The notes under the pieces were generated by a model. That model saw only the letters and a list, made by a program, of their open reading frames with translations. It was not told where the DNA came from and did no database searches. Below, piece after piece: positions 31,115 to 32,313 of a DNA stretch of 64,000 nt (position 1 is the first letter of the stretch; each line of letters opens with the position of its first letter). The position numbers were made by a program, and so were the translations under genes. The DNA lies in contig CAWJZX010000013.1 in NCBI GenBank assembly GCA_963847495.1, forward strand, positions 323,716 to 387,715. Reading direction: 5' to 3'. The DNA comes from an uncultured Gammaproteobacteria bacterium (GTDB lineage: Bacteria; Pseudomonadota; Gammaproteobacteria; Thiotrichales; Thiotrichaceae).

Positions 31115-32313
31115 CTGAAGCTTGTATGGTTGTTCTAGCCTTAATTTATGATCATAGTTAAGGCATCGGGGAGGTGGAGGCTCTTCGCTTTGCTTCTGCC
31201 ACTTTACGTGTACAGACTAGCCGAGATTACACCCCTCCACCCCATTCATTAATGAGCGCCTATTAAGAATCTTGCCTATGATGGCCGATTTCAACAAGCT
31301 TGCGCCTTTCGTGATTCCCGATACGTTTTTAACCTTACTTGGGAGTTCACAAAATGGCAATGCTCGTTAATGTAAAAGAGTTCGGAGTTGACGTCGCTAA
31401 AGATTGGCTGGATATTTTTGATGGTGCTGAAGTCATTAGAATTGAGAACCGGCAACAAGCTATTCGCGCTTTTCTTAAAACGCTTCCTGGCACTTGTGCT
31501 ATCGCGATTGAGTCGACGAATACATACCATGAGTTGATGGTGGAGCTGGCGATTGCAGCAAAGCATACGGTCTATTTAATCGATGCCTATCGTCTCTCTC
31601 GTTATCGGGATGCGGTCGGGGTAAGGGCTAAAACGGATCTGAATGATGCCATGTTGTTATTGCGTTACATGCGTTCGGAGAAACAGCAGTTAGTGGCCTT
31701 TAAACCCTTGCCTAAAGCGGTTAAACGCCTGAATCGCCTGCTTAAAGCACGGGCCAAACTGGCGCAGTTAAAAACCGCTATGGGCTTATCTTTAACGGGG
31801 GTTGCTGAATTGGCACAAACACGTAAGGCATTGCTGAAACGCTTTGAAGATGCAATGGCAGTGATTGATAAACGGTTGCTGGAGTGTATAAAATTAGCGG
31901 AGTATCAAGATGATTATCGGCGCTGTTTAAGTATCCCGGGGATTGGTCCTTTGAATGCAACTGCCCTTGTGGCATTGTTTCATCGAGGGTATTTTTCCAA
32001 GTCGGACGCCTTTATCGCTTTTATGGGGCTGGATGTGAGGGTACGAGAATCGGGGTACTTTAAAGGTAAGCGCAAACTGACGAAAAAAGGGAGTCCTGAA
32101 ATGAGGCGGTTATTGTTTAATGCCGCGAGAGCAGGCGCAAAAACCAAACAATGGAATGCCTATTATCTTGCTATGCGTGCAAGAGGTCATTCGACAACCG
32201 CTACCGCGGTTGCCATATCGCGTAAAATCGCTAGACTGGCATTTGCGTTAATGAGAGATCAATCTGAATATCGTCCTATTTAGGTTTTTTTCTTGATTAT
32301 TAACATAGAATCT
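31115..32313 (+). mobile_element. IS110-family element, copy 1 (boundaries +/- about 8 bp), inserted in a C-box element
   Basis: It splits a repeat that is intact at 48970-49116: ...CAATGCTGTTGTCTCG | IS | CGGCTCATTTT.... There is about 240 nt of non-coding DNA 5' of the transposase and about 30 nt 3'. It ends ...CATAGAATCT. Confidence 0.8.
31354..32283 (+). CDS. IS110-family (DEDD) transposase
   Basis: Likely ATG at 31354 (MAMLVNVKEFGVDVAKDWL). Motifs present: AIESTNTYH, KTDLNDAMLL and IPGIGPLNATALVA. Confidence 0.9.
   Translation: MAMLVNVKEFGVDVAKDWLDIFDGAEVIRIENRQQAIRAFLKTLPGTCAIAIESTNTYHELMVELAIAAKHTVYLIDAYRLSRYRDAVGVRAKTDLNDAMLLLRYMRSEKQQLVAFKPLPKAVKRLNRLLKARAKLAQLKTAMGLSLTGVAELAQTRKALLKRFEDAMAVIDKRLLECIKLAEYQDDYRRCLSIPGIGPLNATALVALFHRGYFSKSDAFIAFMGLDVRVRESGYFKGKRKLTKKGSPEMRRLLFNAARAGAKTKQWNAYYLAMRARGHSTTATAVAISRKIARLAFALMRDQSEYRPI

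What the first reader, a model, noticed from the sequence alone, without database searches (positions are those of the whole stretch)
31115..31353. Candidate bridge (guide) RNA regions in the IS110-family non-coding ends
Copies 1 and 2 carry about 235 nt of non-coding DNA 5' of the transposase (31115-31353 and 52960-53193). This DNA stays alignable between the copies even though the proteins have diverged to about 70% identity. Conserved stretches include GCTTGTATGG, GATCATAGTTAAGGCATCGGGGAGG.GGAGG, GTGTACAGACT, CACCCCTCC.CCCCA and GCGCCTAT.AAGAATCTTGCC.

The IS1111-like element instead has its long non-coding part 3' of the gene (16787-17041). That placement (5' for the IS110 group, 3' for the IS1111 group) matches published descriptions of bridge RNAs, which base-pair with both target and donor DNA.

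If such RNAs exist here, their target-binding loops should be complementary to the repeat submotifs named in the previous finding.
Basis: inference. Interest (0 to 1): 0.65.

Follow-up and report, generated by a model that had tools for sequence, protein, structure and literature searches.

The report
Bridge RNA genes in IS110 elements
The roughly 190 non-coding bases in front of each of two IS110-type transposase genes encode a bridge (guide) RNA of the kind described in 2024, with loops that match the DNA beside each insertion; this is normal for the family, though the two copies show clear natural retargeting.

Summary

**The two IS110-group copies**
- Copy 1 spans 31123-32313 and copy 2 spans 52966-54148.
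- Each has a ~230-nt non-coding left end. The two are 80% identical there, against 70% for the coding DNA and 44.5% at third codon positions.
- The left end folds into a 5' hairpin followed by two stem-loops with internal loops.
- Across 44 relatives, 15 base pairs show compensatory changes.
- A covariance model built only from distant relatives (no more than about 50% protein identity) hits exactly these two regions, at E = 5e-18 and 5e-21.

**Guide matches**
- Loop 1 carries the target guides.
  - The right guide is perfectly complementary to CT plus the 5 right-flank bases in both copies, although those flanks differ (CGGCT versus CCAAC).
  - The left guide matches copy 2's left flank 7/7, but copy 1's only 1/7 in register.
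- Loop 2 matches the joined IS ends.
- Guides and flanks covary across relatives (0 of 20000 shuffles reach the observed match).
- Joining the ends would assemble a sigma-70-type promoter.

**The IS1111-like element (15674-17041)**
It has target-matching segments in its 3' non-coding region, in the reversed order published for seekRNAs.

**Verdict:** new members of a known kind. RNA expression and activity were not tested.

The parts
31110..31120 (+). Copy 1 left target flank (LT), TCTCGCTGAAG
   Evidence: Sequence. Compared with the LTG: 1/7 match in register, 8/10 if one DNA base is looped out.
31121..31122 (+). Copy 1 core CT at the left junction
   Evidence: CT lies at both junctions (31121-22 and 32312-13). 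The same holds in relatives.
31123..31308 (+). Copy 1 bridge RNA gene, from the left end (RD TGTATGG 31123-29) through the 3' arm of the donor-loop stem
   Evidence: Leave-out covariance model R2: 73.7 bits, E = 4.8e-18, full length. Structure supported.
31138..31164 (+). Copy 1 5' stem-loop (GCCTTAA...TTAAGGC)
   Evidence: RNAalifold pairs carry compensatory changes in 8 close relatives. Coordinates.
31168..31243 (+). Copy 1 target-binding stem-loop. Outer stem 31168-80 / 31232-43; inner stem-loop 31195-31216.
   Evidence: The inner stem UCUG/CAGA covaries with UCCG/CGGA, UCAG/CUGA and UCUA/UAGA.
31186..31194 (+). Copy 1 left target guide (LTG), CGCUUUGCU
   Evidence: Position homologous to LTGs that match their left flanks in relatives. 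Here it matches only the core plus G.
31219..31225 (+). Copy 1 right target guide (RTG), AGCCGAG
   Evidence: Exact reverse complement of CTCGGCT at 32312-32318.
31255..31306 (+). Copy 1 donor-binding stem-loop. Outer stem 31255-59 / 31302-06; LDG AGAAUCU 31266-72; inner stem-loop 31274-85; RDG CAACAAG 31292-98.
   Evidence: LDG equals the right end AGAATCT (32307-13). ACAAG is the reverse complement of CTTGT at the joined ends. Both stems covary.
31354..32283 (+). Copy 1 IS110-family recombinase gene (309 aa)
   Evidence: PF01548 + PF02371. NF033542 'IS110 family RNA-guided transposase', 144.7 bits against a cut-off of 140. IS621 transposase 8wt6, E = 2.7e-16.
32293..32318 (+). Copy 1 right end and right flank: -35-like TTGATT 32293-98, LD ATAGAAT 32305-11, core CT 32312-13, right target CGGCT 32314-18
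   Evidence: The -35 element lies 17 nt from TATGGT (31125-30) only when the two ends are joined.
52956..52965 (+). Copy 2 left target TCGCTACG plus core CT
   Evidence: Matches LTG UCGCUACG over 8 contiguous bases.
52966..53151 (+). Copy 2 bridge RNA gene: LTG 53029-37 CGCUACGUA, RTG 53063-69 GUUGGAG, LDG 53110-16, RDG 53135-41
   Evidence: R2: 85 bits, E = 5.3e-21. Coordinates.
53194..54123 (+). Copy 2 IS110-family recombinase gene (309 aa)
54128..54153 (+). Copy 2 right end and right flank: -35 TTGACA 54128-33, LD ATAGAAT 54140-46, core CT 54147-48, right target CCAAC 54149-53
   Evidence: CTCCAAC is the exact reverse complement of the RTG.
15674..17041 (+). IS1111-like element: 7-bp extension TGATGAA, sTIR 15681-92 / 17027-38, 3-bp extension ATA; recombinase gene 15764-16786
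   Evidence: The end geometry is as described for IS1111 elements in PMC11187229.
16861..16923 (+). IS1111-like target-binding stem-loop. Outer stem 16861-68 / 16916-23; RTG CCUCAUCCGA 16876-85; small hairpin 16887-90 / 16896-99; LTG AUAGGUCG 16901-08.
   Evidence: The RTG is 9/10 complementary to T|CGGATAAGG (17042-50). The LTG equals TAGGT|CG across the insertion point. Stems and guides covary in L110-L127.
16930..16980 (+). IS1111-like candidate donor guides: UUCAUCA 16930-36 (complement of the left end TGATGAA) and AUAUACG 16974-80 (same as the right junction ATATA|CG). Tentative.
   Evidence: These segments and the ends are invariant in all relatives, so covariation cannot be tested.

Best explanation
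Each of the two IS110-group elements encodes, in its left non-coding end and on the transposase strand, a bridge RNA of about 170 nt, of the IS621/ISPpu10 type.

**Inferred mechanism, by homology**
1. The element excises as a circle.
2. Joining the right and left ends brings a -35 box (in the right end) 17 nt from a -10 box (TATGGT, in the left end). The RNA and the recombinase are transcribed from this promoter.
3. The RNA folds into a 5' hairpin and two stem-loops, each with an internal loop.
4. The first loop reads the target.
[quoted passage not shown] 5. The second loop reads the joined IS ends in the same way (LDG AGAAUCU, RDG ACAAG).
6. The DEDD recombinase exchanges strands at the shared CT core.

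The two copies have the same donor loop but different target loops. They sit in different half-sites of a repeated intergenic element. The IS1111-like element works in the same way, from an RNA in its 3' non-coding region with the guide order reversed.

**Shown here:** homology, fold covariation, guide-flank and guide-end complementarity and its covariation, and the split promoter sequence.
**Inferred:** transcription, RNA-protein binding and recombination activity.
For: **Selection on the non-coding DNA**
- It is 80.2% identical between copies, against 44.5% at third codon positions.
- Differences concentrate in the guides: 8 of 16 guide bases differ, against about 17% elsewhere (sequences).

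**Structure**
- On 44 left ends, 86% of cells are paired, against 76% in shuffles and 33-42% when partners are slid.
- 15 pairs have changes on both sides; 0 of 500 shuffles reach this.

**Homology without circularity**
- Model R2 was built from 36 left ends of elements no more than about 50% identical in protein, from other genera.
- It hits only 31123-31308 (E = 4.8e-18) and 52966-53151 (E = 5.3e-21) in the 64-kb window, and only on the + strand.

**Guides**
- RTG versus right flank is 7/7 in both copies, although the flanks differ.
- Copy 2's LTG matches 7/7.
- Across relatives, the RTG matches its own flank 4.43/5 against 1.54/5 for non-cognate flanks. The LTG scores 5.02/7 against 2.75/7. 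For both, 0 of 20000 shuffles reach the observed value.
- Further sites for two other relatives agree.

**Donor**
- LDG AGAAUCU equals the right end.
- ACAAG is complementary to CTTGT at the joined ends.
- A short inverted repeat, CATA/TATG, flanks the donor.

**Promoter**
- TTG sits at the -35 position, 17 nt from the -10, in 40 of 47 distinct end junctions, and in 0-1 at shifted positions.
- Copy 2 has a perfect TTGACA.
- No + strand sigma-70-like promoter lies upstream in the integrated state.

**Proteins**
- They pass NCBIfam NF033542 'IS110 family RNA-guided transposase'.
- They match the solved IS621 transposase.

**Published architecture:** PMC11208160.
Against: - No expression data: the RNA, its ends and its binding to the recombinase are inferred.
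- Single-sequence folding energies are unremarkable (z = -2.1 for copy 1, -0.4 for copy 2).
- Copy 1's LTG matches its left flank at only 1 of 7 non-core positions in register. As read, the RNA does not fully specify the site copy 1 occupies.
- The last LTG position often does not match the T of the core. It is UA in copy 2 and CA in many relatives.
- The RDG matches only 5 contiguous bases.
- Rfam 15 has no family to compare with.
- Many relatives are related sequences rather than independent events. I collapsed them to unique guide/flank pairs, but phylogenetic non-independence remains.
Confidence: 0.9

Rival explanations
1. The conserved left end is only a protein-binding end, promoter and leader for the transposase. 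No guide RNA is involved, and the matches to the flanks are incidental.
For: - IS ends are generally conserved because transposases bind them.
- The left end does hold a -10 box and the gene's leader.
- Single-sequence folding is not exceptional.
Against: - Base pairs are kept through changes on both sides in six helices.
- The variable segments track the flanking DNA of each lineage: 0 of 20000 shuffles reach the observed match. Protein-binding sites would not do this.
- This family is experimentally shown to use such RNAs (PMC11208160, PMC11187229).
Confidence: 0.03
2. The bridge RNA reading is right, but copy 1 is at a site its RNA specifies only in part. Three routes are possible: a half-match (right-half-driven) or near-cognate insertion; an insertion with one target base looped out; or a right guide that was recently re-programmed while the left guide lags behind.
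For: - Copy 1's LTG matches 1/7 in register, and 8/10 with one DNA base looped out. Its RTG matches 7/7.
- The same one-base offset is seen in L081 (same guides, a different site), L083 (10/10 with the loop-out) and L003/L006.
- The flanks of L081-L083 show two related half-sites in tandem: TCGTCGCTATG-CT-CCAAC and TCTCGCTAACG-CT-CGGCT.
- Copy 1's LTG fits the first site's left half 8/9, while its RTG fits only the second.
- Relatives tolerate imperfect right halves: 5/7 at nine of the ten sites recovered for one relative.
- A 2026 preprint reports half-match recombination (listed; not read in detail).
Against: - The flank could have mutated after insertion, though four lineages share the same offset.
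- No experiment here separates a bulge from a half-match or from lagging evolution.
- Only a handful of insertion events are available.
Confidence: 0.55
3. Both copies are relics: the RNA genes and recombinase genes are intact in sequence but no longer active.
For: - Only one copy of each lineage lies in 64 kb.
- Copy 1's LTG does not match its left flank.
Against: - Both reading frames are full length (309 aa) and pass the family model.
- Ends, core, donor guides and promoter boxes are intact.
- A 91%-identical relative with the same guides sits at another site in a metagenome (L081). This points to recent mobility.
Confidence: 0.1

Closest known systems
IS621 bridge RNA and recombinase (Escherichia coli; Durrant et al. 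2024, PMC11208160; Hiraizumi et al. 2024, PMC11208158)
   Same: - The RNA is encoded in the long left end, upstream of a DEDD recombinase.
- It has a 5' hairpin plus a target-binding loop and a donor-binding loop.
- The LTG has the sense of the left half-site. The RTG is complementary to the core plus the right half-site.
- The core is CT.
- A short inverted repeat flanks the donor.
- A promoter is rebuilt across the joined ends.
   Different: - The protein is only distantly related: phmmer E = 2.7e-16 over residues 48-302.
- There is no detectable DNA similarity to any E. coli genome.
- The RTG is 7 nt (core + 5) rather than 4.
- The last LTG position often does not pair with the core T.
- Nothing here is experimentally tested.
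ISPpu10 of Pseudomonas putida and the wider clade with ends ...CATAGAATCT / TGTATG... (ISPpu10 is one of the six elements inspected by Durrant 2024; bioRxiv 10.64898/2026.03.19.712850)
   Same: - The window elements share with about 70 gammaproteobacterial and betaproteobacterial relatives the same donor sequence (CATAGAAT-CT-TGTATG), RNA scaffold and CT core.
- Those relatives include Pseudomonas elements inserted in REP sequences (...CCCGCT|CTCCCAC/CTCCTAC).
- Like ISPpu10, the window elements insert into a repeated intergenic element.
   Different: - That ISPpu10 itself belongs to this clade is my inference, from the REP-type flanks of the Pseudomonas loci. Its sequence was not in hand.
- Proteins are about 45% identical to the Pseudomonas members.
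- The targets here are different repeats.
- I did not find a target stem-loop pairing with the left half-site of the kind that preprint describes.
seekRNAs of IS1111-family elements (ISEc11, ISKpn4, ISPst6, ISPa11; Siddiquee et al. 2024, PMC11187229)
   Same: For the third element (15674-17041):
- The non-coding region is downstream of the gene.
- It has sub-terminal inverted repeats with 7-bp and 3-bp extensions.
- The segment complementary to the top strand lies 5' of the segment complementary to the bottom strand. The two overlap at the insertion point.
- It targets a REP-like palindrome, as ISPa11 does.
   Different: - It is about 48-50% identical in protein to the plasmid-borne IS4321/IS5075-like relatives found. 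Its identity to the named elements was not measured.
- It has its own target, GTAGGT|CGGATAAGG.
- Its donor guides are only tentatively placed.

Membership tests
IS110-group bridge RNA system (IS621 type) | Recombinase with a DEDD/RuvC-like N-terminal domain and a Tnp C-terminal domain | tested here: met
   PF01548 + PF02371 in both copies. NF033542 scores above its cut-off. Matches the IS621 transposase 8wt6.
IS110-group bridge RNA system (IS621 type) | Long non-coding left end upstream of the gene and a short right end | tested here: met
   Left end 231 nt (copy 1) and 228 nt (copy 2). Right end 30 and 25 nt.
IS110-group bridge RNA system (IS621 type) | [quoted passage not shown] | tested here: met
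   RNAalifold on close and on broad alignments. Pair counts: 86% paired, 15 pairs with changes on both sides, 0 of 500 shuffles.
IS110-group bridge RNA system (IS621 type) | Target loop: the LTG matches the left half-site plus core, and the RTG is complementary to the core plus right half-site | tested here: met
   Copy 2: LTG 7/7 and RTG 5/5 at non-core bases. Copy 1: RTG 5/5 but LTG only 1/7 in register. So the feature is fully met for copy 2 and half met for copy 1.
IS110-group bridge RNA system (IS621 type) | Donor loop: the LDG matches the right end plus core, and the RDG is complementary to the core plus left end | tested here: met
   AGAAUCU equals AGAATCT at the right end (7/7). ACAAG is complementary to CTTGT (5/5). 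The donor is nearly invariant in the clade, so there is little covariation to test.
IS110-group bridge RNA system (IS621 type) | The same core dinucleotide at both junctions and in the guides | tested here: met
   CT lies at 31121-22 and 32312-13, and at 52964-65 and 54147-48. The RTG ends in AG and the LDG in CU. The LTG core positions are CU in copy 1 but UA in copy 2.
IS110-group bridge RNA system (IS621 type) | Guides covary with flanks across orthologues | tested here: met
   0 of 20000 shuffles reach the observed match, for both RTG and LTG. Further sites agree.
IS110-group bridge RNA system (IS621 type) | A sigma-70 promoter is rebuilt across the joined right and left ends | tested here: met
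   Sequence only. The boxes are TTGATT or TTGACA, then 17 nt, then TATGGT. TTG is at -35 in 40 of 47 junctions. No + strand promoter is found in the integrated context.
IS110-group bridge RNA system (IS621 type) | Matches a covariance model of the family's RNA | tested here: met
   No public model was available; Rfam 15 has none. The leave-out model R2, built from distant members, hits both regions at E = 5e-18 and 5e-21.
IS110-group bridge RNA system (IS621 type) | The RNA is transcribed, binds the recombinase and is required for recombination | not testable with these tools
   Needs RNA sequencing, binding assays and recombination assays.
IS1111-group seekRNA/bridge RNA system | Sub-terminal inverted repeats with a 7-bp (left) and a 3-bp (right) extension, and the long non-coding region downstream of the gene | tested here: met
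   TGATGAA + ATGGTCTCCTCC ... GGAGGAGACCAT + ATA. The 3' non-coding region is 255 nt against 90 nt at the 5' end. Criteria taken from PMC11187229.
IS1111-group seekRNA/bridge RNA system | The segment complementary to the top strand lies 5' of the segment complementary to the bottom strand, and the two overlap at the insertion point | tested here: met
   CCUCAUCCGA (16876-85) lies 5' of AUAGGUCG (16901-08), and they overlap on T|CG. Order as in PMC11187229.
IS1111-group seekRNA/bridge RNA system | Guides covary with flanks in relatives | tested here: met
   Left flanks TAGGT, TAGAA and TAGGG go with guides UAGGU, UAGAA and UAGGG. Right flank: cognate 7.27/9 against non-cognate 4.77/9. The sample is small, with about five guide classes.
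IS1111-group seekRNA/bridge RNA system | Donor-matching segments | tested here: inconclusive
   UUCAUCA and AUAUACG match the ends. Both they and the ends are invariant, and RNAalifold places them partly inside helices.

The most novel reading that the evidence does not exclude
In one sub-lineage (copy 1, L081, L083, L003/L006), natural insertions lie in left half-sites that are one base longer than the left guide, while the right guide matches perfectly. If this is not just evolutionary lag, these recombinases accept one of two things in nature: a discontiguous (bulged) LTG-target pairing, or a target specified essentially by the right half plus the core. Either would relax the accepted rule that both halves must match in register. 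It would also show how a bridge RNA hops between two related half-sites of one composite repeat by changing only its right guide.
Probability: 0.25. Interest if true: 0.45.

Novelty: new member of a known kind. Interest (0 to 1): 0.3.

Why it matters
- It assigns a function to about 190 nt of conserved non-coding DNA in each element, and explains why these elements sit where they do in a repeat-rich genome.
- The window offers a compact natural example of retargeting. Two 73%-identical elements in one genome share a donor loop but carry different target loops, each matching its own site.
- The one-base offset in the left half-site of one lineage could inform the mismatch and bulge tolerance of bridge recombinases, which matters for their off-target behaviour as genome-editing tools.
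- Otherwise the finding is what current knowledge of IS110/IS1111 elements predicts.

Tried and rejected
- **Rfam 15.** A search of the whole window at gathering thresholds and of the region at E up to 10 found nothing relevant. Rfam appears to have no bridge RNA family, so this counts neither for nor against.
- **E. coli genomes.** A DNA search aimed at reaching IS621 found no match.
- **Exact look-ups.** Copy 1's protein and its 90%-identical relative P0003 are not on record.
- **Viral contigs.** A scan for the IS1111-like protein found nothing.
- **Single-sequence MFE folding.** z-scores were -2.1 and -0.4. The fold partly pairs guide segments with the left end, so it was not used as evidence.
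- **RNAalifold on the broad MAFFT alignment.** It recovered only 12 pairs, because the irregular outer stem is misaligned between subfamilies. I therefore specified the structure by hand from one reference and counted pairs.
- **First guide extraction by regular expressions.** It mislocated several guides and was replaced by alignment columns.
- **An 8-bp contiguous outer stem, GGUGGAGG/CCUCCACC.** Considered for copy 1 and rejected, because it breaks in copy 2, L001 and L002. The interrupted helix (GGGG/CCCC, GG/CC, GG/CC, GG/CC) is kept.
- **The second AUCCGA (16896-16901) as the IS1111-like right guide.** Relatives show it is the 3' arm of a small covarying hairpin. The guide is the upstream CCUCAUCCGA.
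- **A hairpin masking the ribosome-binding site between the RNA and the start codon.** It looks plausible by eye, but RNAalifold gave no consensus.
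Full report
**What is there**

The window holds three IS110-family recombinase genes, each with PF01548 and PF02371. All three pass NCBIfam NF033542, 'IS110 family RNA-guided transposase'.
- Two of them (31354-32283 and 53194-54123) are 73% identical in protein. Each is preceded by about 230 nt of non-coding DNA.
- The third (15764-16786) is followed by 255 nt of non-coding DNA.
- Copy 1's protein is a distant relative of the structurally solved IS621 transposase (E = 2.7e-16).

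**Checking the observation**

The two upstream regions align at 83% column identity. Between the element start and the end of the structured part (31123-31308 versus 52966-53151) they are 80.2% identical. The coding DNA is 69.8% identical and third codon positions only 44.5%, so the non-coding DNA is under purifying selection.

Comparison with relatives fixes the element ends.
- Each copy starts with TGTATGG directly after a CT, and ends ...CATAGAATCT.
- CT therefore lies at both junctions. Copy 1 spans 31123-32313 and copy 2 spans 52966-54148.

**Relatives**

A protein search found more than 2000 homologues, mostly on contigs of about 1.2 kb that are the element itself. Scans of one genome per species and of metagenomes gave 80 and 29 loci. 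Two exact-protein look-ups added 20 more.

The closest relatives are in uncultured Gammaproteobacteria and a Cocleimonas assembly (82-91% identity). More distant members (43-50%) come from Pseudomonas, Stutzerimonas, Methyloversatilis, Halomonas, Thioalkalivibrio and others. Nearly all share the ends CATAGAAT-CT-TGTATG and an alignable left end.

**Fold**

On eight close relatives, RNAalifold predicts three parts:
- a 5' hairpin (31138-31164);
- a long interrupted helix (31168-80 with 31232-43) enclosing an internal loop and an inner hairpin (31195-31216);
- a second stem-loop.

The outer stem of that second stem-loop (31255-59 with 31302-06) and its inner stem (31274-85) were established from the broader alignment.

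I wrote a structure down from one distant reference sequence and counted it on 44 left ends.
- 86% of cells are paired, against 76% in column shuffles and 33-42% when partners are slid by 1-3 columns.
- 15 of 27 pairs have changes on both sides (120 cells). No shuffle out of 500 reaches any of the five measures.
- Clear examples: the inner stem varies UCUG/CAGA, UCCG/CGGA, UCAG/CUGA, UCUA/UAGA. The donor-loop outer stem varies GCGC/GCGC, GCAC/GUGC, ACGC/GCGU, AUGC/GCAU.

Single-sequence folding energies are unremarkable, so the case rests on covariation.

**A test that does not use the window**

Rfam 15 has no matching family. I therefore built a covariance model from 36 left ends of elements no more than about 50% identical in protein, leaving out the window and all close relatives.

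In the 64-kb window it finds exactly two matches. Both are full length and on the + strand: 52966-53151 (85 bits, E = 5e-21) and 31123-31308 (73.7 bits, E = 5e-18). It also finds the left end of every closer relative that retains it (24 of the 25 loci searched).

**Target guides**

In the published model, the 5' side of the first loop (LTG) has the sequence of the left half-site plus core. The 3' side (RTG) is the reverse complement of the core plus the right half-site.

| Copy | Guide | Sequence (position) | Flank | Match |
|---|---|---|---|---|
| 1 | RTG | AGCCGAG (31219-25) | CTCGGCT (32312-18) | 7/7 |
| 2 | RTG | GUUGGAG (53063-69) | CTCCAAC (54147-53) | 7/7 |
| 2 | LTG | CGCUACG (53029-35) | CGCTACG (52957-63) | 7/7; 8 contiguous with the preceding U/T |
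| 1 | LTG | CGCUUUG (31186-92) | GCTGAAG (31114-20) | 1/7 in register |

The two right flanks differ at 4 of 5 non-core bases, and the two guides differ to match. Between the copies, 8 of the 16 guide bases differ, against about 17% of the rest of the RNA. This is the pattern expected of a conserved scaffold carrying re-programmed guides.

**Covariation of guides and flanks**

Guides were taken from fixed alignment columns and flanks from the element ends, then collapsed to unique guide/flank pairs.
- The five non-core RTG bases match their own right flank 4.43/5, against 1.54/5 for other lineages' flanks.
- The seven non-core LTG bases match 5.02/7, against 2.75/7.
- In both cases 0 of 20000 shuffles of flanks among guide classes reach the observed value.

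Individual cases are clear. RTGs AAUAAAG, AUUAUAG, CGGAUAG, AGUAAAG, ACCGCAG, GUGGGAG and GUAGGAG lie next to CTTTATT, CTATAAT, CTATCCG, CTTTACT, CTGCGGT, CTCCCAC and CTCCTAC respectively. Two mismatches are G:U pairs (L005, L028).

Two further relatives, each with several independent sites, behave the same way. One is 6-7/7 on the right at three sites. The other is 9-10 contiguous bases on the left, but only 5/7 on the right.

**Donor guides and promoter**

In the second loop, AGAAUCU (31266-72; 53110-16) equals the last seven bases of the element including the core. ACAAG (31294-98; 53137-41) is complementary to CT+TGT at the joined ends. The donor is flanked by a short inverted repeat: CATA...TATG in copy 1 and CCATA...TATGG in copy 2. 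Durrant et al. noted the same feature for the IS110 group.

Joining the ends places TTGATT (copy 1) or a perfect TTGACA (copy 2) exactly 17 nt upstream of TATGGT. TTG occupies that position in 40 of 47 distinct end junctions, and in 0-1 at shifted positions. In the integrated state no + strand promoter-like site precedes the RNA. This is the split promoter described for IS621, ISEc21 and ISPpu10.

**Targets**

Both copies sit in a repeated intergenic element.
- CTCGGCT occurs 15 times in the window, where 4.3 are expected.
- Several occurrences are empty sites of the form GTCTCG-N5-6-CTCGGCT (13407, 20100, 49057, 5725).
- Copy-2-type sites (...TCGTCGCTTTA-CT-CCAAC...) occur at 35011 and, in degenerate form, upstream of 54757.
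- The flanks of L081-L083 show both half-site types in tandem within one repeat: TCGTCGCTATG-CT-CCAAC-ATTG-TCTCGCTAACG-CT-CGGCT.

The two window elements therefore target neighbouring, related half-sites of one composite repeat.

**The unexplained part**

Copy 1's left flank (TCGCT-GAAG-CT) has one base more than its LTG (UCGCU-UUG-CU). The same offset appears in four other insertions:
- L081, which is 91% identical, has the same guides and sits at a different site;
- L083, which matches 10/10 if one DNA base is looped out;
- L003 and L006.

Copy 1's LTG fits the left half of the other half-site type 8/9. Three readings remain open: a tolerated bulge, recognition driven by the right half, or a right guide re-programmed recently while the left guide lags behind. 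I could not separate them (note).

**The IS1111-like element**

It spans 15674-17041. It has TGATGAA + ATGGTCTCCTCC on the left and GGAGGAGACCAT + ATA on the right. This is the 7-bp and 3-bp extension geometry that Siddiquee et al. give for the IS1111 family. It interrupts GTAGGT|CGGATAAGG, and an uninterrupted inverted copy of that site lies at 15590-15607.

Its 3' non-coding region contains:
- a covarying outer stem (16861-68 with 16916-23);
- CCUCAUCCGA (16876-85), which is 9/10 complementary to T|CGGATAAGG and 10/10 in the closest relatives;
- a small covarying hairpin (GGAU/AUCC, GGGU/GCCC, GAAC/GUUC);
- AUAGGUCG (16901-08), which equals TAGGT|CG.

The order (top-strand complement first) and the overlap at the insertion point are as published for IS1111 seekRNAs.

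In relatives obtained through:
- left flanks TAGGT, TAGAA and TAGGG go with guides UAGGU, UAGAA and UAGGG;
- right flanks CGGATAAGG, TGACTAT and CAACTAT go with their complements. Cognate matches are 7.27/9, against 4.77/9 for non-cognate.
- One relative (L120) has a right flank that does not match.

RNAalifold gives 50 pairs, 10 of them with compensatory changes. The candidate donor guides (UUCAUCA 16930-36; AUAUACG 16974-80) match the ends. Both they and the ends are invariant, so they stay tentative.

**Verdict**

These are bridge (seek) RNA genes of the known IS110 and IS1111 kinds, and therefore new members of a known kind. Transcription, protein binding and activity are inferred, not shown. 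The only feature that departs from the published rule is the one-base register offset in the left half-site of the copy-1 lineage.

Noticed in passing
window, 29 sites from 2347 to 63052 (for example 7712, 10039, 13324, 31038, 48975, 52893): A motif close to AAAGACACCCCCTACTTTTAGGCACTTTTT occurs 29 times where about 1.3 are expected. Every copy is on the + strand. 26 of 29 are intergenic, whatever the orientation of the neighbouring ORFs. Some copies head a longer composite repeat that ends in the IS110 target site.
   Followed up: partly
window 31309-31353 and 53152-53193; the same position in L001-L080: Between the bridge RNA and the start codon, nearly all relatives keep ...GUGA(G/U)(U/C)CCCCG(A/G)C..., and downstream a complementary-looking (G)YCGGGAGG that includes the ribosome-binding site. 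This could be a hairpin that masks translation. RNAalifold on a MAFFT alignment gave no consensus.
   Followed up: partly
L069:1-1260 (uncultured Gammaproteobacteria MAG MFD09964): The left flank of this relative is itself an IS right end (ACTTCATAGAATCT|TGTATG). It is either a tandem copy or an assembled circle junction.
   Followed up: no
L047 and L062, right flanks: Tandem arrays of the right half-site (CTCCCACAGGGACAG repeated about five times in L047; a longer unit in L062) lie directly after the element.
   Followed up: no
window 15573-15610 and 17042-17060; L110-L119 right flanks: The IS1111-like target is one arm of a REP-like palindrome: GTAGGTCGGATAAGG...CCATCCGAC...GTCGGATGG...CTTATCCGACCTAC. 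An intact inverted arm lies about 70 nt upstream of the element in the window.
   Followed up: partly
window 51789-52646 (- strand): A 285-aa ORF looks like a tyrosine (phage-integrase-type) recombinase: it has an ...HxLRHxxAT... motif and a C-terminal ...LGHxxxxxTxxY. It lies about 320 nt upstream of copy 2. It was not examined.
   Followed up: no
window 31354-32283 and 53194-54123 (proteins): The C-terminal domain of both IS110 recombinases gives weak, sub-threshold hits to the NCBIfam model for the TIGR-Tas RNA-guided endonuclease (NF052498; 22-30 bits against a cut-off of 100).
   Followed up: no
L120 (ERZ25072490 contig), right junction: This IS1111-like relative has a matching left flank (GTAGGT), but its right flank (CGTGCTGAA) fits its right guide at only 3/9. 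It may be a natural half-matched or rearranged insertion.
   Followed up: no
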